Shown: positions 1 to 9,600 of the stretch, piece by piece
How the letters are laid out: each line of letters starts with the position of its first letter
Numbering within the stretch: the stretch's first letter is position 1
Source of the DNA: a virus
Reading direction: 5' to 3' (one strand)
UHGV virus genome: UHGV-0181023
DNA: 16,382 nt
Notes under the pieces: generated by a model
Told to the model about the DNA's origin: nothing
Database searches by the model: none
The model's input: the letters and a program-made list of their open reading frames with translations, nothing else
Made by a program: the position numbers and the translations under genes

Positions 1-162
1 AATGCCGTAATGCTGCCTGATGCGAAATGGTCGCCGGAAACTTAAAACAGAAGCGAAAATTATCTGTGGTCTGCTCACGCCAGCGCAGGACAACCTCGGA
101 TTTCGGCAGGGCGTAAAGCGTGGTGTTGCCCTCCACACAGTTAACATGACGGGTATTAAGGA

Positions 163-1144
163 TTAACTTACTGATTTTAATAAGCCTCTGGTGTCACTTT
201 GGTGACTATGGGGCATCATTGGGACATAATCTGTCAGCTTCTGATTCAGCATTGCGATCTGTTCTGCATTGCTGTCAGTCATCCATGCTCCGTATACATT
301 GAATACCATCTGGGCACTTGCATGGCCCATCTGGCTGGCAATGAAGCTTGGGTTTGCTCCGGCAGATAATGACCAGCACGCATAAGTGTGTCGTGACTGG
401 TATGCCTTTCGATGCCTGATCCCTGCACGCTTAATGGCTGTTTCCCATGAGTCACCTACAGAATCGACTTTGTAGACAAAACCTACCTGTTCGCTTTTTC
501 TAACCACTTGAGGGTTAAACACGAAAGTACATTCATGGTTCACTGAACGTCTATATTCACGTAGTTGCACCTTGATGTTGTACTGCTTACCCAGTCTTGT
601 CATTTCAGCCTGATTTTTCAGGACACTGATAGCGGGCTGGATAAGGTGCACAACCCTGTTTGTGCTTGCTTCAGTTTTCGGTAGAGTGAACTCACTTGTT
701 TTTCGTTGAATTCTGATACCCGGTAAGCAAATCTTTCCTGATATACAGCAATTCCTCTTTGGTTACCGATGACACCAGTCTACTGCCTCCAATTTTCGGA
801 ACCATCGTTCTTGCAACGGATTCATAGCGATTGAATGCATTTGCAGAGATTTCCATTCGTTTCAGATCCAGCCACTTTTCTTCAAGTTCCTTCACCGTAA
901 TTTCTTTTTTACTTACCCCAAAAGTCTGAAGGTTGGGGGAGTCAGGGAACTGTGCAGCATAATCAAAGCTTCCTGTGCGGATGGCAAAACATACTGATGT
1001 CCGCAGTTCCCCGGCGATCTTCCTGTTCTTGGCAGTGTCAGGGACACCAAGATTTTCCCTGACACGTTTACCTTTAAAATTAAACCAGATGCGTAATGTG
1101 CCGCCGTGGTTTTCGACGCCTGTTGGATATTTGACTTTATCCAT
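163..1144 (-). pseudogene. int: tyrosine integrase (Rac IntR-like), apparently frameshifted: N-terminal ORF 692..1144, C-terminal catalytic ORF 163..651 in another frame
   Basis: N-terminal ORF has arm-type DNA-binding-like start (KYPTGVENHGGTLRIWFNFKGKR); C-terminal ORF carries SRHTYACW...GH...VYGAWM (box II Arg/His and catalytic Tyr). The two frames differ (529 nt offset) and the C-terminal frame stays open upstream across the N-terminal stop at 692. Box I Arg region not evident. Strong SD (GGAGGT) before ATG at 1144. Confidence 0.6.
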
Positions 1145-1199
1145 CGATACCTCCAGACGCCCAAGAGCGATACGAGCTTACATATTTCATGATATTAAA

Positions 1200-1436
1200 T
1201 CACCTGGGTTGTTTGTTTTTCATTGAGGCGACCCAGGCATCTATTGCTTTTCTGTTATACATACATTCACTGGAAGGCTTTGGATTACCGTCTGGTGATA
1301 CGTGAATATACTCTCTTCCAACCATCCAGCATTCTTTCCGGGCCCGAAGAATTGTGCCTGGTTTGAGCCCGGTAATTGCGATAAGAACGCTTTCACAAAC
1401 CCATTCATTGGGAGCCAGTTGAATCACATTGCCCAT
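1200..1436 (-). CDS. xis: excisionase-like protein (putative Xis)
   Basis: 78-aa ORF immediately upstream of int on the same strand; motif LAPNEWVCESVL...TGLKPGTI...REY.HVSPDG resembles phage excisionase-like family; SD GAGGT 5 nt before ATG. Confidence 0.65.
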   Translation of the reverse strand: MGNVIQLAPNEWVCESVLIAITGLKPGTILRARKECWMVGREYIHVSPDGNPKPSSECMYNRKAIDAWVASMKNKQPR

Positions 1437-1444
1437 GTATTACC

Positions 1445-1591
1445 TCACACAACACTCAGCCCACGGCAGTGGCAACACACTTCAAACATTCGCTTCACAA
1501 CTTCACGACAGTAGAAGCCGTCAACATCTCGCGTCAGGTCATAGCGATTGCCGTAACGCTGGTGGACCCATCGTTCAAATGCTTTATTCAT
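1445..1591 (-). CDS. small hypothetical protein, 48 aa, with CxxC and CCHC cysteines (below ORF-track size cutoff)
   Basis: ATG at 1591 preceded by AAAGGAAG; translation MNKAFERWVHQRYGNRYDLTRDVDGFYCREVVKRMFEVCCHCRGLSVV; stop overlaps the xis SD; sits in a coupled gene chain. Confidence 0.4.
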   Translation of the reverse strand: MNKAFERWVHQRYGNRYDLTRDVDGFYCREVVKRMFEVCCHCRGLSVV

Positions 1592-1594
1592 TCT

Positions 1595-1837
1595 TTACTT
1601 CCTTTTTATGGCTCGTAATTTTTTCAGGTGCTTTTCCTGCTCAGTGTCCGCGAGAATTTTGCGGTACTCCTGGTGGTCAATATGTTCGAACAGGCAGTTT
1701 AACTCACCAATGCGTACCCGCCCGGATCGTCCGTCCATCCGTCGAAAGAACACTGAGTGCTCAGTGATGCGAGTAATCACCACGGGGTATCCGGCTCTGT
1801 CCGTGTATATCTGACCGCGTTGAATCAAAGCGAACAT
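1595..1837 (-). CDS. hypothetical protein, 80 aa
   Basis: ORF-track frame 1595..1891; the listed start is TTG and its first 18 codons (MRWRWRWW...) look non-genic; in-frame ATG at 1837 has upstream GGGGAT. Confidence 0.5.
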   Translation of the reverse strand: MFALIQRGQIYTDRAGYPVVITRITEHSVFFRRMDGRSGRVRIGELNCLFEHIDHQEYRKILADTEQEKHLKKLRAIKRK

Positions 1838-1921
1838 GTGGTTATCCCCAGCGGCAAATCGAATACACCACCAGCGCCACCGCCATCGCAATTCCTACCG
1901 TTGTTAATGCTTCAGGCCAGG

Positions 1922-2266
1922 TCATCGTAAAATATCCTCCACGCTCATCAGTCCGTTCCGCTCCAGATAACTCATCGCCTTATCCGGTAATTTGCAGTCT
2001 GGCTTCGCTTTCCTCAGTTGCCAGGTTAACTGCTTTACCAGCATGGTTAACTCATCGACCAGACGCTGATATCCCACTGGTTTGTATTCATGCAATTTAC
2101 CGGCTGGCTCTGCTGCCAGCGATACCAGTGCGATTTCCAGAACAGCAATATCCATCTTATATGTGCGGATGATGTCATGGTCGATTGTGCCCGGTATGCA
2201 CAGTCTCTGTGCTTCAATAGTCTCCTCTGCGTGAGCTATTAACTGCTCTCTGGTAAAAGTCGTCAT
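1922..2266 (-). CDS. hypothetical protein, 114 aa; shares an (E/D)[10 protein letters not shown]-type motif with the two upstream paralogs
   Basis: ORF track; ATG at 2266 overlaps stop of upstream ORF (ATGA); upstream AAGAAGGGG. Confidence 0.65.
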
Positions 2267-2430
2267 GCCGTAGCCCCTTCTTGATATTTTTCAAACCAGA
2301 ACACAACCGGCTCTGCTTCCAGCGATACCAGCGCAATCCGTGCCAGTTCCATTTGTTCACCACGGGTAAGCCCGTTTTCAAGCGGATTTTTAATGAACAA
2401 TTCAATACGTTCTTTGGTAATAGTGGTCAT
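2263..2430 (-). CDS. small hypothetical protein, 55 aa; paralog of the N-terminal domain of the 2706..3116 product
   Basis: Not in ORF track (under 60 aa). ATG at 2430 with AAGGAG 7 nt upstream; translation [55 protein letters not shown]; stop overlaps next start. Confidence 0.5.
2296..2430. repeat. direct repeat copy A (~135 bp, ~87% identical to 2982..3116)
   Basis: Hand alignment of 2311..2430 with 2997..3116 gives about 105 of 120 identities; similarity extends ~15 nt further upstream. Confidence 0.6.
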
Positions 2431-2440
2431 GTGTTACTCC

Positions 2441-2704
2441 TTAACCCGCAGTGCTTTCAACTGATGAGGGGAACAAAATCTTTTCATCAAACCCTGCATT
2501 CATATCATGAACAGCAACACACCAATCCATCGACGAACGATTATCAAGAGCCTCCATGATTTCATCCATGCGGCGTAGGTCATACAGGTAAATGCTTTTA
2601 TCGCCAATGGTGTAAAAACCAATTTTTTTCGGTGATGGGCAGCGATCAAGAACGTCCTGTAATTCGTTCAACCATGCCCGTTCTTTTTTTGTTAAAGTTG
2701 CCAT
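2441..2704 (-). CDS. hypothetical protein, 87 aa
   Basis: ORF-track frame 2441..2815; internal ATG at 2704 has AAGGAGAG upstream and sits 1 nt after the stop of the upstream gene (TGAtATG), so the longer listed start is unlikely. Confidence 0.7.
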   Translation of the reverse strand: MATLTKKERAWLNELQDVLDRCPSPKKIGFYTIGDKSIYLYDLRRMDEIMEALDNRSSMDWCVAVHDMNAGFDEKILFPSSVESTAG

Positions 2705-2705
2705 A

Positions 2706-3116
2706 TCACTCTCCTTTCCCATGAAGCATAGCGGCGCGGCAGGCGTTCCAGCCTGTAGCGTATGCAGCCGCTTTGCTGCTGCCTTCAACTGGCGCATCCT
2801 GCCAATACATTTCATCCGGCACTACCGGCGCTGGCAAGGCAGCGTGATAGTAGAGTGGCATAGTTTTGTACAGTGGTTCGCCAGGACTTCCGTCAACCTG
2901 ATTCCATTCTTCAACCCAGGCATCAACAACCGCTTTGCTGGTTGATACATGTTCTTCTGAATCTACATTTTGTCCTGATATACAGAACATAACTGCCTCT
3001 GCTTCCAGCGATGCCAGAGCAATTCGTGCCAGTTCCATTTGTTCGCCACGAGTAAGTCCGTTATCAAGCGGATTTTTAATGAATAATTTGATACGTTCTT
3101 TGGTTATAGCGTTCAT
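2706..3116 (-). CDS. hypothetical protein, 136 aa, N-terminal domain duplicated in 2263..2430
   Basis: ORF-track frame 2706..3158; ATG at 3116 preceded by AAGGAGAG and overlapping the stop of the Ea22-like gene; product starts [41 protein letters not shown]. Confidence 0.7.
   Translation of the reverse strand: MNAITKERIKLFIKNPLDNGLTRGEQMELARIALASLEAEAVMFCISGQNVDSEEHVSTSKAVVDAWVEEWNQVDGSPGEPLYKTMPLYYHAALPAPVVPDEMYWQDAPVEGSSKAAAYATGWNACRAAMLHGKGE
2982..3116. repeat. direct repeat copy B (pairs with 2296..2430)
   Basis: See copy A; both copies encode the N-terminus ([34 protein letters not shown]) of adjacent genes. Confidence 0.6.
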
Positions 3117-3117
3117 C

Positions 3118-3933
3118 TCACTCTCCTTTGATGCGAATGCCAGTAGCGCGGATTGCATCGATGACTTCAGAAACTTTGTATGCCATTACCGTTTGGTAAT
3201 CATCGTGAAAATCTGTTCGATGAAGCATGCTGCTACGTTCCGGGAGCGATATTTCCCGAGCATCCAGTTCCTTAACGCGCTCCTCCAGTTCGTAGACCCT
3301 GCATTGTTCTCTATCATCAATCAGATATAACCCAAGACATTCGCTTTCTACCCAACCGCCAAAATCATGATCGTAACGCTCACATGAAAACTCACCGTCA
3401 CCGTCCTTTGTTGGAATGGTGTAACTATCTAATGGGCCACCATATGTCGGCACATTTCCCAATGTTGGATGCTCAATCCACATGAAAAATGCACGTCCGG
3501 TTATTGGGCAAATATCTGGCCGCCATTGGTTACGAACAGCCTTGGTTTCGGATAATTCTTCAGCGTGTTGTTTTACTTCCTCAAGCTCAACTCTCAGCTT
3601 CCCAACCGTAAGAGCAATATCCTCGTTCTTCTGGTCGCGGCGTTTGATGTATTGCTGGTTTCTTTCCAGCTCATCCAGCAGCGCCAAGACGGTAGCCGGA
3701 TTGGCTGCAGCGATGAATTCAGCATTGGCCTGCTGTTCCATTTGGAAATCTTCATCGAAACCGCTTTCAGGATGCGCTCCTTCAATTCTGCAAATGGGAA
3801 TATATCCAGCAGCCTCGCGATGAATTAGCGCATCATCACCATCAAATCGGCCCGATCCATATTCGAGCGACCACTCACCACACGTTGCTTTCTCTGCCTT
3901 TTCACGCAGTGCCTGATAGTCAATCTTGCTCAC
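3118..3933 (-). CDS. Ead/Ea22-like protein (N-terminal coiled-coil region, unknown C-terminal domain)
   Basis: 271-aa ORF; GTG start with AAGGAGG 6-7 nt upstream; motif NAEFIAAANPATVLALLDELE recalled as typical of Ead/Ea22-like prophage proteins; lies in the ea region between int/xis and the immunity region. Confidence 0.65.
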   Translation of the reverse strand: MSKIDYQALREKAEKATCGEWSLEYGSGRFDGDDALIHREAAGYIPICRIEGAHPESGFDEDFQMEQQANAEFIAAANPATVLALLDELERNQQYIKRRDQKNEDIALTVGKLRVELEEVKQHAEELSETKAVRNQWRPDICPITGRAFFMWIEHPTLGNVPTYGGPLDSYTIPTKDGDGEFSCERYDHDFGGWVESECLGLYLIDDREQCRVYELEERVKELDAREISLPERSSMLHRTDFHDDYQTVMAYKVSEVIDAIRATGIRIKGE

Positions 3934-4234
3934 TGGTTGCCTCCTTTGCCGGGATTTCTAACTTTTGAGTGGTTGTATCAAATTCAAACAACTTAACCAC
4001 GTCATCAAACAGGACATAATCACCATCAGGATCTTCAGTCATATCTGCGCCACAATCCTGACCGCACGAGTCGCAACCATCCATATCAAGCTCGTATCGC
4101 TTCAGGTTTGCGATATTTGATAAATTCAGCGCCAGTACAGCCAGGTCATAAACCTCTTCGGCAGTGACATCGCTGTTCAGTCCCATTTCATGGCGATATA
4201 TGATTTTTTCTACTCGTTGTTTTGTGATCGTCAT
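3920..4234 (-). CDS. hypothetical acidic protein, 104 aa (Cys/Asp-rich stretch DMDGCDSCGQDCGADMTEDPDGD)
   Basis: ORF-track frame 3920..4258; ATG at 4234 preceded by GGAGTGAAG; 3' end overlaps the Ea22-like start by 14 nt. Confidence 0.65.
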   Translation of the reverse strand: MTITKQRVEKIIYRHEMGLNSDVTAEEVYDLAVLALNLSNIANLKRYELDMDGCDSCGQDCGADMTEDPDGDYVLFDDVVKLFEFDTTTQKLEIPAKEATSEQD

Positions 4235-4382
4235 TTTTCTCTTCACTCCGATATACAAGGATTACCACACCCCCTCTGCTGATTGCGCGAGCTGGATCCC
4301 CTGGTTCCATGCCGTCAATTCCGAAGGCTTCGGAAAACGCATTCATTGCCTTCTGGCGTTCATCCTGCTTACGGCGTTTATT

Positions 4383-4505
4383 CTATTTTTTCAGGAACAA
4401 CAGCGACAGCCACCGTCCGCTGCAGAACACGATGTAAAAATAACCAAGGAGCGCCAGGCCGACATTCAGGGCCGTTTCTATGGTTAGTTGTGAGTCAGTT
4501 GCCAT
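4383..4505 (-). CDS. candidate small hydrophobic (single-TM-like) peptide, 40 aa
   Basis: ATG at 4505 overlapping the end of the upstream gene; translation MATDSQLTIETALNVGLALLGYFYIVFCSGRWLSLLFLKK; weak SD (AGGT); not in ORF track because under 60 aa. Confidence 0.35.
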   Translation of the reverse strand: MATDSQLTIETALNVGLALLGYFYIVFCSGRWLSLLFLKK

Positions 4506-4743
4506 TTCTTACCTGTTTAAGTAACTGGTTGAACATAACACTTAGGGGATTGCTGTATCCAAACGGCAGATTGTTTACGCAGTACAGAATCATTTTGTTT
4601 TTTTCTCCAGTTCGTACTATTAACCCATTCCACAATAACCGTGATAATTCATTACTGATAGAAGTTGCGCTTCTTCCAAGTGCGAGGGATATATCTTCTC
4701 TACTGCAATCTGGATTTTCCTGGATATACTCGATAACGGTCAT
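4495..4743 (-). CDS. hypothetical protein, 82 aa, possible winged-helix DNA-binding fold
   Basis: ORF-track frame 4495..4785; the ATG at 4743 follows the stop of the upstream gene (4754) with AAAAGGGA between, avoiding a 32-nt overlap; fold call is weak inference from DISLALGRSATSISNELSRL. Confidence 0.55.
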   Translation of the reverse strand: MTVIEYIQENPDCSREDISLALGRSATSISNELSRLLWNGLIVRTGEKNKMILYCVNNLPFGYSNPLSVMFNQLLKQVRNGN

Positions 4744-4753
4744 GTGGTCCCTT

Positions 4754-5335
4754 TTACTTAATATCTGTTTCGGATTGCATGCCATGAGTATTCATTTCGT
4801 TAATAATTTCATCCAGAAGGATTTCAAGCCCTTCTCGACCCATATCTGAAAGAATGAAACCTTTATCAGGGGAAGTAGTGAGCATTTTCTGATAAAGAAA
4901 CAGCGCTCTTCCCATTCCTTCAGCTTCGCCGTATTTTTGAATTAAATTCCATTCAATATACTGTTGTAAGGCAAATCGAATGGGGCCGGGATATATCGTC
5001 ATAAACCCATACATCCCGTTATATACCACGGCGTGTTCAGTTGTTCCGTGTTCATTCAGGATATCAATTGTGCCGTTCTTGTCTTCTTCTTCGTTGATGA
5101 ATGTCGTCACATACAACCATCGCCACTGAGCAACCTTCATCTCAACCGGAAGTTTACCCAGTAATCCTGCTTCGTCGGCTTGCGCCAGACACTGAAGGAT
5201 ACGTAAACCTCGCACATTAGGAGTATCGAATTCTCCGGCATCCAGACGACGTATGGCGTCGTGATAATCAATCGTCATACTGCCAGTTCGTATACCATTG
5301 GCTGTTGCTTCAGCCTGGAATTCATCGTATTGCAT
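4754..5335 (-). CDS. hypothetical protein, 193 aa
   Basis: ORF track; ATG 5 nt after the stop of the upstream 60-aa gene; protein-like composition; no family recognised. Confidence 0.7.
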   Translation of the reverse strand: MQYDEFQAEATANGIRTGSMTIDYHDAIRRLDAGEFDTPNVRGLRILQCLAQADEAGLLGKLPVEMKVAQWRWLYVTTFINEEEDKNGTIDILNEHGTTEHAVVYNGMYGFMTIYPGPIRFALQQYIEWNLIQKYGEAEGMGRALFLYQKMLTTSPDKGFILSDMGREGLEILLDEIINEMNTHGMQSETDIK

Positions 5336-5340
5336 GATAT

Positions 5341-5523
5341 TTATTCCTCATCTTCATCTGCTGGTGCAATAACGTCATATCCTGCCTTTTCTGCAATAAA
5401 CAGGAATGTTGAAAGAGTTCCTACAAGTTCATCGTCATGAACATGGCGAATGAATATTACTTTCCCGTTTTTGATGGTCAGCAATACTCTGGTTTGTTCG
5501 TGTTCTGCTGTTTTCTGATGCAT
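5341..5523 (-). CDS. hypothetical small protein, 60 aa, acidic C-terminus
   Basis: ORF track; SD GGGAGAT upstream of ATG at 5523. Confidence 0.6.
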   Translation of the reverse strand: MHQKTAEHEQTRVLLTIKNGKVIFIRHVHDDELVGTLSTFLFIAEKAGYDVIAPADEDEE

Positions 5524-9215: not shown

Positions 9216-9414
9216 TCACTCAACATCAATAACGGGGAGCTGTTTCGCATAAAACGGCTCCGAAACATCCAAGAACAGTTCTAAAGATATCAGCAGCTAT
9301 ATGATCATTTCAAGACCAAATATTGATTCTGCAATTTCGGGACGTTACACTGTCTCTGCACCTTATAAAGCGGGTGCCGGGGGTCGCAGCCCGGAATTGT
9401 CAACGGCGATATAT

Positions 9415-9434
9415 GACGCGCCAGCGTCTTTTTT
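9415..9434 (+). terminator. terminator-like hairpin (GACGC-GCCA-GCGTC followed by T6) inside the spacer upstream of rha
   Basis: 5-bp GC stem, 4-nt loop, T6 run; within a frame that is open but looks non-coding. Confidence 0.3.
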
Positions 9435-9600
9435 ATCGTCCGCGCTCACGCACGCCAGAATTATGGTGGGCTGGGCAGGGGAGCCGAAAGGCTCGCCGGT
9501 CTCCGTTGACGCCGGTACTGCGAACCCTGTTCAGTCTGCCACCAGTGAGTTTCGCAGCTCCGGTGGTGGAAGTTTTCCACAGTCAACGGAGGCTGCCATC

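What the first reader, a model, noticed from the sequence alone, without database searches (positions are those of the whole stretch)
1922..3116. Three adjacent paralogous genes built on a ~135-bp direct repeat
2296..2430 and 2982..3116 are ~87% identical direct repeats, each encoding the N-terminus ([31 protein letters not shown]...SLEAE) of a different gene; a third gene (1922..2266) carries a diverged version ([10 protein letters not shown]). One copy is a stand-alone 55-aa ORF, the other is fused to an unrelated ~85-aa C-terminal domain. This looks like module duplication and shuffling; the shared domain could be a common interaction module with variable effector tails.
Basis: seen in the sequence. 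Interest (0 to 1): 0.45.

Follow-up and report, generated by a model that had tools for sequence, protein, structure and literature searches.

The report
Shuffled N-terminal cap of prophage genes
The repeat is real: it encodes a conserved 40-residue N-terminal helical "cap" (the N-terminus of phage P22 EaA) that lambdoid prophages of enterobacteria paste in front of hundreds of different small accessory proteins. It is a clear but fairly ordinary example of phage genes being rebuilt by recombination at short conserved joints.

Summary
2297-2442 and 2983-3128 are 146-nt direct repeats, 86% identical. A 29-nt core recurs at 2106-2134.

All lie on the minus strand of an E. coli (ST131-type) lambdoid prophage, in the early-left accessory region between int/xis and the immunity genes. 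The repeat encodes the N-terminus of P22 EaA / HK620 HkaE, which no Pfam model covers. It is predicted to be an alpha-helical hairpin.

Its reach is wide:
- 234 protein clusters (50% identity level) carry it, at residue 1 in 123 of 126 representatives examined.
- It sits in front of DUF551, dATP/dGTP pyrophosphohydrolase (DUF550) and many uncharacterised tails.
- At least 17 sequence variants exist, all ending in IALxSLEAEP.

The two copies here are not a recent local duplication (dS 0.36, dN/dS 0.20). They are separately assembled cassettes.

Homology with other phages stops at the cap's 3' core, at a Pro-rich linker, at a CRAAML helix, or at "KGE-stop-ATG" gene joints. A sibling prophage, 99.7% identical, has an exact 203-bp deletion between the two 29-nt cores. 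This fuses the 55-aa gene's cap to the 114-aa gene's tail.

Shuffling is shown. The cap's protein function (self-association or docking) is inferred only.

This is a good example of known intragenic mosaicism, of modest novelty.

The parts
2297..2442 (-). Repeat copy A: Shine-Dalgarno sequence, start codon and N-terminal cap (residues 1-44) of g55
   Evidence: D1; alignment; cap HMM E 3.5e-32
2983..3128 (-). Repeat copy B: Shine-Dalgarno sequence, start codon and N-terminal cap (residues 1-44) of g136
   Evidence: D1, 86% identical to copy A; cap HMM E 6e-29
2263..2430 (-). g55: cap plus a 13-residue tail ([14 protein letters not shown]). Its stop overlaps the start of g114 (ATGA).
   Evidence: The exact sequence is seen on at least 1000 contigs. 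The same tail follows three or more cap variants.
2706..3116 (-). g136: cap, cassette 1, Pro-rich linker, cassette 2 / CRAAML helix, then a KGE-stop end. PGAP annotates it as two pseudogene pieces.
1922..2266 (-). g114: long cap variant (residues 1-54), short linker, then a conserved C-terminal module (ELTMLVKQL...EDILR)
   Evidence: In the AF2 model the cap helices 6-26 and 30-51 have pLDDT about 90.
2106..2134 (-). 29-nt core ([10 protein letters not shown]) at the 3' end of the g114 cap. It is one end of the 203-bp deletion seen in sibling prophage L007.
   Evidence: D3
2309..2337 (-). 29-nt core ([10 protein letters not shown]) at the 3' end of the g55 cap. It is the other end of the 203-bp deletion. 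Homology to HK620, P22 and PhiR12_1 stops here (2306-2312).
   Evidence: D3
2995..3023 (-). 29-nt core (IALASLEAEA) at the 3' end of the g136 cap. Homology to phage 689R5 ends at 3024. Homology to HK620, P22 and PhiR12_1 starts at 2997-2998.
   Evidence: D3
2811..2858 (-). Pro-rich linker PLYYHAALPAPVVPDE of g136. This is a conserved joint between cassettes across the family (consensus PLYAAPPAPVVPD).
   Evidence: Consensus; sequence listings; disordered in the AF2 model
2718..2750 (-). WNACRAAMLHG helix of g136. After this conserved joint, relatives either stop (GKGE*) or continue into a linker plus DUF551.
   Evidence: P0439, P0440 and P0214 compared with g136; helix 113-132 with pLDDT 81-85
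2702..2717 (-). Gene joint AAAGGAGAGTGA-T-ATG: the KGE-stop of g136 doubles as the Shine-Dalgarno sequence for g87.
   Evidence: D2; sequence; homology breakpoints at 2708 and 2717
3114..3129 (-). Gene joint AAAGGAGAGTGA-G-ATG: the KGE-stop of the Ea22-like gene doubles as the Shine-Dalgarno sequence for g136.
   Evidence: D2; sequence
2441..2704 (-). g87: the gene between the two canonical caps. It has no cap (phrog_1714) and travels as a block with g55 and g114.
3118..3933 (-). Ead/Ea22-like gene (271 aa), a mosaic neighbour. In other phages its N-domain is fused to the g136 tail at the same LEAEAV joint.
   Evidence: PF13935 E 2e-32; P0473 and P0497
4127..4234 (-). Possible fourth, very diverged cap: residues 1-36 (MTITKQRVEKII...DLAVLAL) of the 104-aa gene 3920-4234
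   Evidence: weak; hhalign probability 28%

Best explanation
**What it is.** The repeat is the coding sequence of a conserved N-terminal module, here called the 'N-cap'. It is about 40 residues in its canonical form, [41 protein letters not shown], and is predicted to be an alpha-helical hairpin.

The cap heads a hyper-mosaic family of small accessory proteins. These are encoded in the early-left region of lambdoid and P22-like phages of Enterobacteriaceae. The prototypes are P22 EaA and HK620 HkaE.

The window is such a prophage. It carries two canonical caps (g55, g136), one long variant (g114) and perhaps a fourth, arranged in tandem.

**How the proteins are built.** They are beads on a string: cap, variable cassettes, and sometimes a terminal domain (DUF551, a MazG-like dATP/dGTP pyrophosphohydrolase, or the ELTMLVKQL...EDILR module). 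The pieces are joined by a few short conserved stretches:
- the gene start;
- the cap's 3' core, IALxSLEAEP;
- the linker PLYAAPPAPVVPD;
- the helix NACRAAMLxG;
- the gene boundary KGE-stop-N-ATG.

**How the shuffling works.**
- Shown: homologous recombination at these short conserved stretches re-assorts caps, cassettes and whole genes between phages. It also deletes between copies within one prophage.
- Inferred from the literature: the enzymes are most likely relaxed-fidelity phage Rad52-like recombinases and/or RecA.

**Origin of the two copies here.** They are independently acquired alleles, not a fresh duplication.

**Why the cap is conserved.** It is held by protein-level purifying selection.

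**What the cap does (inferred, about 35% confidence).** A 40-residue hairpin is unlikely to be stable alone, so it probably self-associates or docks on a common partner. It would then give very different cargo cassettes the same assembly or targeting handle.
For: **Identity and location**
- tblastn of the cap hits eaA of P22 (84% identity, E 5e-17), hkaE of HK620, and EaA, DUF550 and DUF551 genes in 92 phage records.
- The locus lies between int/xis and the repressor genes of a prophage inserted next to yecE.

**Breadth**
- 234 representatives of 50%-identity clusters match at E <= 1e-3. Lengths among the 150 best listed run from 53 to 457 aa.
- The cap starts at residue 1 in 123 of 126.
- Tail content of those 126: 35 DUF551, 14 dATP/dGTP pyrophosphohydrolase, 75 with no Pfam domain.
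- Cap DNA occurs in 1341 of 5426 complete E. coli genomes, up to 6 places per genome.

**Protein-level constraint**
- dN/dS is 0.20 at dS 0.36 between the two window copies.
- At least 17 sequence-distinct variants keep the pattern M-T-T-[IF]-T-[KR]-E ... IALxSLEAEP.

**Combinatorial exchange**
- The g114 tail occurs behind 7 cap variants.
- The g136 tail occurs behind at least 8 N-termini, including the Ea22 N-domain.

**DNA breakpoints at joints**
- HK620, P22 and PhiR12_1 share only 2306/2311/2312-2430 and 2997/2998-3116 with the window.
- Homology to phage 689R5 ends at 3024, at the end of the core.
- Other homology ends fall at 2708 and 2717.

**Recombination product in the same prophage**
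- L007 is 99.7% identical on both sides. It lacks exactly the 203 bp between cores 2106-2134 and 2309-2337, which gives an in-frame 101-aa cap(g55)-tail(g114) gene.
- The same fused gene sits in other prophage contexts.

**Structure**
- AF2 predicts helices 6-26 and 30-51 in g114 (pLDDT about 90), followed by a disordered linker.
- AF2 predicts helices 6-14 and 23-38 in g136, with low pTM and disordered linkers. This fits a beads-on-a-string protein.

**Literature**
- Rad52-like phage recombinases recombine short diverged sequences, and small gene fragments are exchanged more often than whole modules (PMC3945230).
- The neighbouring ea22 genes are known to be mosaic (PMC10834534).
Against: **Function of the cap**
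- No experiment or multimer model bears on the cap's oligomeric state or on any partner.
- Foldseek found only generic hairpins, none at E <= 1e-3.

**Selection on DNA versus protein**
- Conservation of the two ends of the cap could owe something to repeated gene conversion, or to selection on the DNA as a recombination joint, rather than to protein function alone. I did not separate these with a synonymous-site analysis across many loci.

**Direction and mechanism of the event**
- The L007 event (deletion versus the reverse) is inferred by parsimony.
- Which recombinase acts is not known. No Red- or Erf-type recombination gene is annotated in the stretch shown.

**Sampling**
- High contig counts for g55 and g136 largely reflect clonal ST131 sampling. 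They are weak evidence for selection on these particular ORFs.
- PGAP treats g136 as two pseudogene fragments.
Confidence: 0.8

Rival explanations
1. Recent tandem duplication followed by decay. On this view the caps were copied in place, and g55 and g136 are truncated, non-functional leftovers of once longer DUF551-type genes.
For: - PGAP annotates g136 as two 'incomplete' fragments, one named DUF551 'missing C-terminus'.
- Full-length DUF551 relatives that are 96-99% identical over 97-98% of g136 exist: P0439, P0440 and P0214.
- g55 has only 13 residues after the cap.
- Rare frameshifted versions of g55 exist: P0007, P0008, P0101 and P0111.
Against: - dS of 0.36 between the two caps and their distinct allele lineages argue against a recent local copy.
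- The g136 end...AMLHGKGE-stop, is a recurrent natural gene end. 29 of 114 homologues end in GKGE, IKGE or GKGK, behind many different caps, and the end doubles as the next gene's Shine-Dalgarno sequence.
- The g55 tail is kept open behind three or more cap variants, and no longer parent containing VVFWFEKY was found among 552 retrieved relatives.
Confidence: 0.1
2. The conserved sequence is primarily a DNA or RNA element, and the encoded peptide is incidental. Candidates are a dedicated recombination site, a translational-coupling or leader cassette, or a regulatory RNA.
For: - The most conserved parts are the two ends of the cap (start region and 29-nt core), and those are exactly where exchanges occur.
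- The gene joints are conserved at the nucleotide level and carry the Shine-Dalgarno sequence (D2).
- g55 ends in an ATGA overlap with g114, as a coupling leader would.
Against: - dN/dS is 0.20, with 9 synonymous against 7 non-synonymous differences in 44 codons.
- Divergent variants keep a helical hairpin pattern while the nucleotide sequence changes.
- There is no Rfam family in 1900-3200.
- Promoter-like sites do not exceed the shuffled expectation. Terminator-like sites number 7 against 2.4 +/- 1.6 expected, but none is a convincing site; the one inside the g55 core (2323-2306) has a 5-bp stem and an 8-nt loop.
- No site-specific recombinase is needed: the L007 crossover lies in an 8-nt identical stretch inside a 29-nt homology, as expected for homologous exchange.
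Confidence: 0.08
3. Programmed fusion. On this view g55 and g114 are normally joined by a frameshift at the ATGA overlap into one 167-168-aa two-cap protein.
For: - In-frame fused forms exist: P0321 (167 aa) and P0322 (168 aa).
- Natural proteins with two caps in tandem exist: P0121 and P0134.
Against: - The fused forms are rare (1-3 member sequences) and differ from the window by small indels, so they do not share the window's sequence at the overlap.
- No slippery heptamer precedes the ATGA overlap.
- g114 has its own Shine-Dalgarno-like AAGGGG, 8 nt upstream of its ATG.
Confidence: 0.02

Closest known systems
P22 EaA / HK620 HkaE and the 'EaA protein', DUF551 (PF04448) and DUF550 / dATP-dGTP pyrophosphohydrolase (PF04447) proteins of lambdoid and P22-like phages
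   Same: - The N-terminal ~42 residues are the same: 84-98% identity.
- The genomic position is the same, in the early-left accessory ('ea') region next to int/xis.
- The linker motifs are the same.
   Different: - g55, g136 and g114 lack the DUF551 and DUF550 domains that name those families.
- g55 is cap-only.
- g136 stops after the CRAAML joint.
- g114 joins a long cap variant to a different C-terminal module.
Ead/Ea22 family (PF13935) and the mosaic ea22 genes of lambda and Stx phages (PMC10834534, PMC7093339)
   Same: - Same operon; the two are adjacent genes here.
- Same architecture principle: a conserved N-terminal segment and variable, portable C-terminal parts, including DUF551.
- In other phages Ea22 N-domains are fused to the very same g136 tail, at the same LEAEAV joint.
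   Different: - The cap shows no detectable sequence similarity to the Ea22 N-domain (hhalign E 0.55).
- Ea22 has a long coiled coil and is tetrameric (PMC10834534). Nothing is known of the cap's state.
Phage genome mosaicism by relaxed homologous recombination at short diverged homologies (PMC3945230), and protein-fragment shuffling in phages (PMC10684548)
   Same: - Exchanged pieces are smaller than genes.
- Homology patches of tens of bases, 83-90% identical, flank the exchanged pieces.
- A recombinant is observed between copies 203 bp apart.
   Different: - Here the joints fall at recurrent, protein-coding linker positions. Many unrelated cassettes can therefore be swapped in frame.
- The recombinase involved was not identified in this prophage.
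Polymorphic toxin loci (CdiA-CT with the VENN motif, Rhs with PxxxxDPxGL). This is an analogy from my own knowledge, not tested here.
   Same: - A conserved N-terminal part, then a short conserved motif, after which sequences diverge abruptly.
- The motif-coding DNA can serve as the crossover point for swapping C-terminal cargo.
   Different: - No toxin, immunity or secretion features were found.
- Each cap gene has its own start and Shine-Dalgarno sequence.
- The proteins are small and cytoplasmic-looking.
- This is a resemblance in logic only, not membership.

Membership tests
EaA-type N-terminal cap family (P22 EaA N-terminus; PHROGs 3323, 60, 660, 5117 share it; no Pfam model) | Significant sequence match to the first ~42 residues of P22 EaA / HK620 HkaE | tested here: met
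   - tblastn against P22 eaA gives 84% identity, E 5e-17, and against HK620 hkaE 90%.
- PHROG hits for g55 and g136 range from 2.4e-18 to 5e-22.
- For g114, a cap HMM built without g114-type sequences gives E 1.9e-9.
EaA-type N-terminal cap family | The module lies at the extreme N-terminus of the protein | tested here: met
   Residue 1 in g55, g136 and g114, and in 123 of 126 cluster representatives.
EaA-type N-terminal cap family | Encoded in the early-left accessory region of a lambdoid or P22-like (pro)phage | tested here: met
   The gene order is int, xis, DUF4222, g114, g55, g87, g136, Ea22..., repressor genes. The position matches that in P22, HK620 and PhiR12_1.
EaA-type N-terminal cap family | The cap ends in the IALxSLEAEP junction, after which sequences diverge | tested here: met
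   Present in g55, g136 and g114. The junction position clusters at residues 38-42 in 124 of 126 representatives.
EaA-type N-terminal cap family (fourth gene, 3920-4234) | Significant match to the cap profile | tested here: inconclusive
   HMM E 1.4e-3 and 3.4e-3; phrog_3323 E 2.9e-4; hhalign E 6e-4 but probability 28%. The IALxSLEAEP end is absent.
DUF551 (PF04448), the name PGAP gives to the N-terminal fragment of g136 | Presence of the C-terminal DUF551 domain | tested here: not met
   There is no Pfam hit for g55, g136 or g114 at E <= 0.1. Relatives P0439 and P0440 have the domain after the point where g136 stops.
DUF550 / dATP-dGTP pyrophosphohydrolase (PF04447) | Presence of the MazG-like pyrophosphohydrolase domain | tested here: not met
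   No hit in the window genes. The domain is present in 14 of 126 cap-bearing representatives.
Ead/Ea22 (PF13935) | Match to the Ead_Ea22 N-terminal / coiled-coil model | tested here: not met
   Only the neighbouring 271-aa gene matches (E 2e-32). The cap profile against that protein gives E 0.55.
Known anti-phage defence proteins (PADLOC-DB) | Match to any defence-system model | tested here: not met
   No hits for g114, g55, g87, g136, Ea22 or g104 at E <= 0.01.
Polymorphic toxin / CDI-like cassette systems (analogy only) | C-terminal toxin domain with a cognate immunity gene and a delivery domain | tested here: not met
   No toxin, immunity or secretion domains were found by Pfam, NCBIfam or PADLOC. 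Toxicity itself cannot be tested with these tools.

The most novel reading that the evidence does not exclude
The cap would be a shared assembly handle. Cap-bearing proteins co-expressed from one prophage (here g55, g136, g114 and perhaps g104) would hetero-oligomerise through their hairpins into mixed complexes. The cap-only g55 would act as a regulator or capping subunit.

The conserved in-frame joints would then make the whole family a recombination-driven diversity generator for fast-evolving host-manipulation or anti-immunity cargo. This is the same logic as VENN-type polymorphic toxins, but for intracellular phage accessory proteins.

It fits two points. The neighbouring hot spot has been suggested as a likely reservoir of anti-immunity genes, on the basis that the anti-OLD protein Oad2 is related to P22 EaE (bioRxiv 10.64898/2026.07.10.737580). 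The cap is also predicted to be a free-standing hairpin. No evidence here bears on assembly or on function.
Probability: 0.15. Interest if true: 0.6.

Novelty: new member of a known kind. Interest (0 to 1): 0.3.

Why it matters
The finding gives a name and boundaries to a very common but unannotated module. The cap has no Pfam model. PGAP labels cap-only fragments 'DUF551' or 'DUF550' on the strength of the cap alone, which is misleading.

It also gives an unusually clean worked example of how phage accessory proteins are rebuilt:
- five short in-frame joints;
- at least 17 cap variants;
- hundreds of tails;
- a caught-in-the-act 203-bp deletion between 29-nt homologies in a prophage that is 99.7% identical.

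The practical value is better annotation of enterobacterial prophages. It also yields a defined set of cassettes from a hot spot suspected of holding lysogeny-modulating and anti-immunity genes.

It does not reveal a new kind of system.

Tried and rejected
**Database searches with no result**
- Pfam and NCBIfam give nothing for g55, g136, g114 or g87.
- PDB sequence search gives nothing below E 0.3.
- Foldseek of the g114 model against the PDB gives no hit at E <= 1e-3, only generic 44-residue hairpins such as the Tiam1 coiled coil, ATP-synthase subunits and T3SS chaperones. I did not read function from these.
- Rfam has no family in the region.
- PADLOC gives no defence hits for the cap genes.

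**Regulatory-site scan**
- Promoter-like sites do not exceed the shuffled expectation.
- Terminator-like sites exceed it (7 found against 2.4 +/- 1.6 expected), but none is a convincing site. The one inside the g55 core (2323-2306) is weak, with a 5-bp stem and an 8-nt loop, so I dismissed it.

**Analyses that were uninformative or negative**
- Single-linkage clustering of the tails merged 122 of 126 sequences, because the tails themselves share linker motifs. I replaced it by reading the junction listings.
- Homology of the Ea22 N-domain to the cap was rejected (hhalign E 0.55).
- A search for a longer parent of the g55 tail found none among 552 relatives.
- The first paper search for EaA and DUF551 returned mostly noise. 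A whole-word search for eaA, eaD and eaE found no functional study of EaA.

- The first homologous-protein run returned only proteins of 97 aa or less. The architecture census therefore rests on the exhaustive phmmer search.
- Megablast copy counts miss the 86% copy, so I used blastn instead.

**Readings rejected**
- Programmed frameshift between g55 and g114 (see rivals).
Full report
**Where we are**

The window is an E. coli prophage. Bases 1500-4300 are 99.9% identical to NZ_CP124475, where the prophage sits next to yecE/cmoA.

All genes in the finding are on the minus strand. They form a long leftward operon:
- int and xis;
- a 48-aa ORF;
- DUF4222 (1595-1837);
- g114 (1922-2266);
- g55 (2263-2430);
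- g87 (2441-2704);
- g136 (2706-3116);
- an Ead/Ea22-like gene (3118-3933, PF13935 E 2e-32);
- a 104-aa gene (3920-4234);
- DUF4752, and further on the repressor genes.

This is the non-essential 'ea' / exo-xis-type accessory region of lambdoid and P22-like phages. The exact g55 and g136 proteins are seen on at least 1000 contigs, with names pointing to O25b:H4-ST131.

**The observation**

It is correct.
- 2297-2442 and 2983-3128 are 146-nt direct repeats, 86% identical. The chance expectation is about 1e-46.
- They cover the Shine-Dalgarno sequence, the ATG and the first 44 codons of g55 and g136.
- A 29-nt core recurs in g114 at 2106-2134. It is 90% and 83% identical to the other two cores, with a chance expectation of about 5e-5.
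- With an HMM built from cap variants that excludes every g114-type sequence, residues 1-54 of g114 match the whole model at E 1.9e-9. So g114 carries a longer homologue of the same module.
- The 104-aa gene at 3920-4234 may carry a fourth, much more diverged copy, but the evidence is weak.

**What the module is**

tblastn of the 44 residues against 50,697 phage records hits 92 of them:
- the N-terminus of eaA in P22 (84% identity, E 5e-17);
- the N-terminus of hkaE in HK620;
- genes labelled EaA, DUF550 or DUF551.

No Pfam or NCBIfam model covers it. Several PHROGs share it.

An exhaustive phmmer search of 1.84 billion cluster representatives finds 234 at E <= 1e-3 and 160 at E <= 1e-10. They are 75-98% identical in the module, although the representatives are by construction under 50% identical overall. 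Lengths among the 150 best listed run from 53 to 457 aa.

The module starts at residue 1 in 123 of 126 and ends at residue 38-42 in 124 of 126.

Of those 126 representatives:
- 35 have DUF551;
- 14 have the dATP/dGTP pyrophosphohydrolase domain;
- 1 has a tail-fibre assembly domain;
- 1 has a GH19 domain;
- 75 have nothing recognisable.

Cap DNA is present in 1341 of 5426 complete E. coli genomes, at up to six places per genome, and 75 times on plasmids.

**Anatomy of the family**

Reading the sequences side by side shows a beads-on-a-string design. The order is:
1. the cap;
2. the junction ...IALxSLEAEP(V);
3. a variable cassette of about 45 residues;
4. the linker (P)LYAAPPAPVVP(D/E);
5. a second cassette;
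6. the helix (W)NACRAAMLxG;
7. then either a stop (GKGE*) or EPVSQTYKL...NSPVTPDGW plus DUF551 or another domain.

g136 follows this plan and ends at GKGE*. g114 is a long cap, a 10-residue spacer, and a conserved C-terminal module (ELTMLVKQL...EDILR) that closes many 160-200-aa relatives. g55 is the cap plus 13 residues.

The cap itself comes in at least 17 sequence variants of 40-69 residues. They share M-T-T-[IF]-T-[KR]-E at the start and IALxSLEAEP at the end.

Tails and caps are combined freely:
- the g114 tail occurs behind seven cap variants;
- the g136 tail occurs behind at least eight N-termini, including the unrelated Ea22 N-domain joined at ...LLGELEAEAVMF.

Gene boundaries are conserved too. 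Ea22-to-g136 and g136-to-g87 are both AAAGGAGAGTGA-N-ATG, in which the KGE-stop is the next gene's Shine-Dalgarno sequence. Of 114 g136 homologues, 29 end in GKGE, IKGE or GKGK.

So the end of g136 is a standard end, not a random truncation, even though PGAP calls the gene two pseudogene fragments.

**Not a local duplication**

The two canonical caps differ at 16 of 132 nt: 9 synonymous and 7 non-synonymous changes, dS 0.36, dN 0.073, dN/dS 0.20. They belong to different allele lineages, each found elsewhere with other tails. They were brought together by recombination between phages, and the protein sequence is under purifying selection.

**Recombination at the joints is shown at the DNA level**

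- HK620, P22 and PhiR12_1 share with this locus little more than the caps. Homology runs 2306/2311/2312-2430 and 2997/2998-3116, so it stops at the cap's 3' core.
- Phage vB_EcoS-689R5 is about 94.5% identical from 1842 to 3024 and then diverges at the end of the 2995-3023 core. Its gene has another cap variant on the same tail.
- Other homology ends fall at the KGE-stop joint (2708, 2717) and at 1842.
- Most directly, contig DAFNAJ010000020 (L007) carries the same prophage with the same neighbours. It has one 101-aa gene in place of g55 plus g114.
  - It is 99.65% identical to window 696-2134 and 99.71% identical to 2309-5422.
  - The two alignments overlap by exactly the 29-nt core, so there is a 203-bp deletion between cores 2106-2134 and 2309-2337.
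  - The crossover lies in an 8-nt identical stretch.
- A simulated in-register crossover gives an in-frame protein that differs by two residues from the natural P0350 and P0351.
- The fused gene also occurs in other prophage contexts.

This is what relaxed homologous recombination by phage Rad52-like recombinases or RecA is known to produce (PMC3945230). Which enzyme acted here is not known.

**Structure and likely role**

AF2 on a 30-sequence alignment of g114 gives:
- a helical hairpin, helices 6-26 and 30-51, pLDDT about 90;
- a disordered linker, 52-63;
- three lower-confidence helices.

AF2 on g136 gives:
- cap helices 6-14 and 23-38;
- a low-confidence cassette 1;
- a disordered Pro-rich linker;
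- a confident helix 113-132;
- pTM 0.29, so no compact fold.

There are no significant structural neighbours and no solved relatives.

In an antiparallel hairpin the two most conserved segments, the start and the end of the cap, lie side by side. I infer that the cap self-associates or docks on a common partner.

By position the genes belong to a region whose known members affect the lysis-lysogeny decision (Ea22: PMC7093339, PMC10834534). A 2026 preprint suggests the recombination-related hot spot of such phages as a likely reservoir of anti-immunity proteins, because its anti-OLD protein Oad2 is related to P22 EaE (10.64898/2026.07.10.737580). None of the cap genes matches a known defence model.

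**Rivals**

- Decay after local duplication: made unlikely by dS, by the recurrent natural ends, and by the ORFs staying open behind different caps.
- A purely DNA- or RNA-level element: made unlikely by dN/dS and by the lack of RNA-family or convincing regulatory-site signals. Some DNA-level homogenisation of the joints cannot be excluded.
- A programmed g55-g114 fusion: unsupported, since the fused forms are rare indel variants.

**Verdict**

The shuffling interpretation is supported; local duplication is not; the function remains open. The finding is a clean, well-documented case of a known process (intragenic mosaicism in lambdoid accessory genes), involving a very common module that lacks a Pfam model. 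Interest is modest.

Noticed in passing
window 1-1144 (breakpoint between 695 and 696): The prophage integrase is broken. Window 1-695 matches NZ_CP124475 locus L001 4170-4864, and window 696-1600 matches L001 5197-6101. So 332 bp (not a multiple of 3) are missing from inside the 437-aa tyrosine integrase, which is intact in L001, L007 and L010. Two ORFs remain (163-651 and 692-1144). The prophage is probably unable to excise.
   Followed up: partly
window 9358-9546 (+) and 16202-16382 (+): Rfam gathering-threshold hits: isrK (9358-9434), C4 antisense RNA (9459-9546) and STnc100 (16202-16382, cut by the window end). The first two suggest a P1/P7- or P22-immI-like antirepressor control region in this prophage.
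   Followed up: no
L007 3001-3306 (GCA_021528075.1, DAFNAJ010000020.1); also L008-L010: A sibling prophage, 99.7% identical, has g55 and g114 replaced by a single 101-aa gene through an exact 203-bp deletion between the 29-nt cores. The same fused gene, with g87 upstream, also occurs in two other prophage backgrounds.
   Followed up: yes
window 1842; 2708-2717; 3024: Homology with unrelated phages repeatedly ends at the same few positions. 1842 lies just upstream of the DUF4222 start (L003 and L008). 2708 and 2717 lie at the KGE-stop-ATG joint (L002, L008, L010). 3024 lies at the cap core (L003).
   Followed up: partly
window 4495-4785 (-): A 96-aa ORF gives weak PADLOC hits (E 9e-6 to 7e-3) to the C-terminal winged-helix parts of CARF, CasR and Csa3 regulators. 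It is probably just a small winged-helix DNA-binding protein, not a defence gene.
   Followed up: no
P0121 (186 aa) and P0134 (332 aa): Some relatives carry two caps in tandem in one polypeptide: a canonical cap directly followed by the longer MTTLTRHRLL...ELARIALASLDAEP variant. They look like in-frame fusions of a cap-only gene with the next cap gene, the same arrangement as g55-g114 here.
   Followed up: partly
window 3118-3933 (-) compared with L002, L004 and L006: The Ea22-like gene is itself a patchwork. Only 3110-3285 and 3581-3949 match HK620 hkaG, and only about 3570-3720 matches P22 or PhiR12_1. This agrees with the published mosaic structure of ea22.
   Followed up: no
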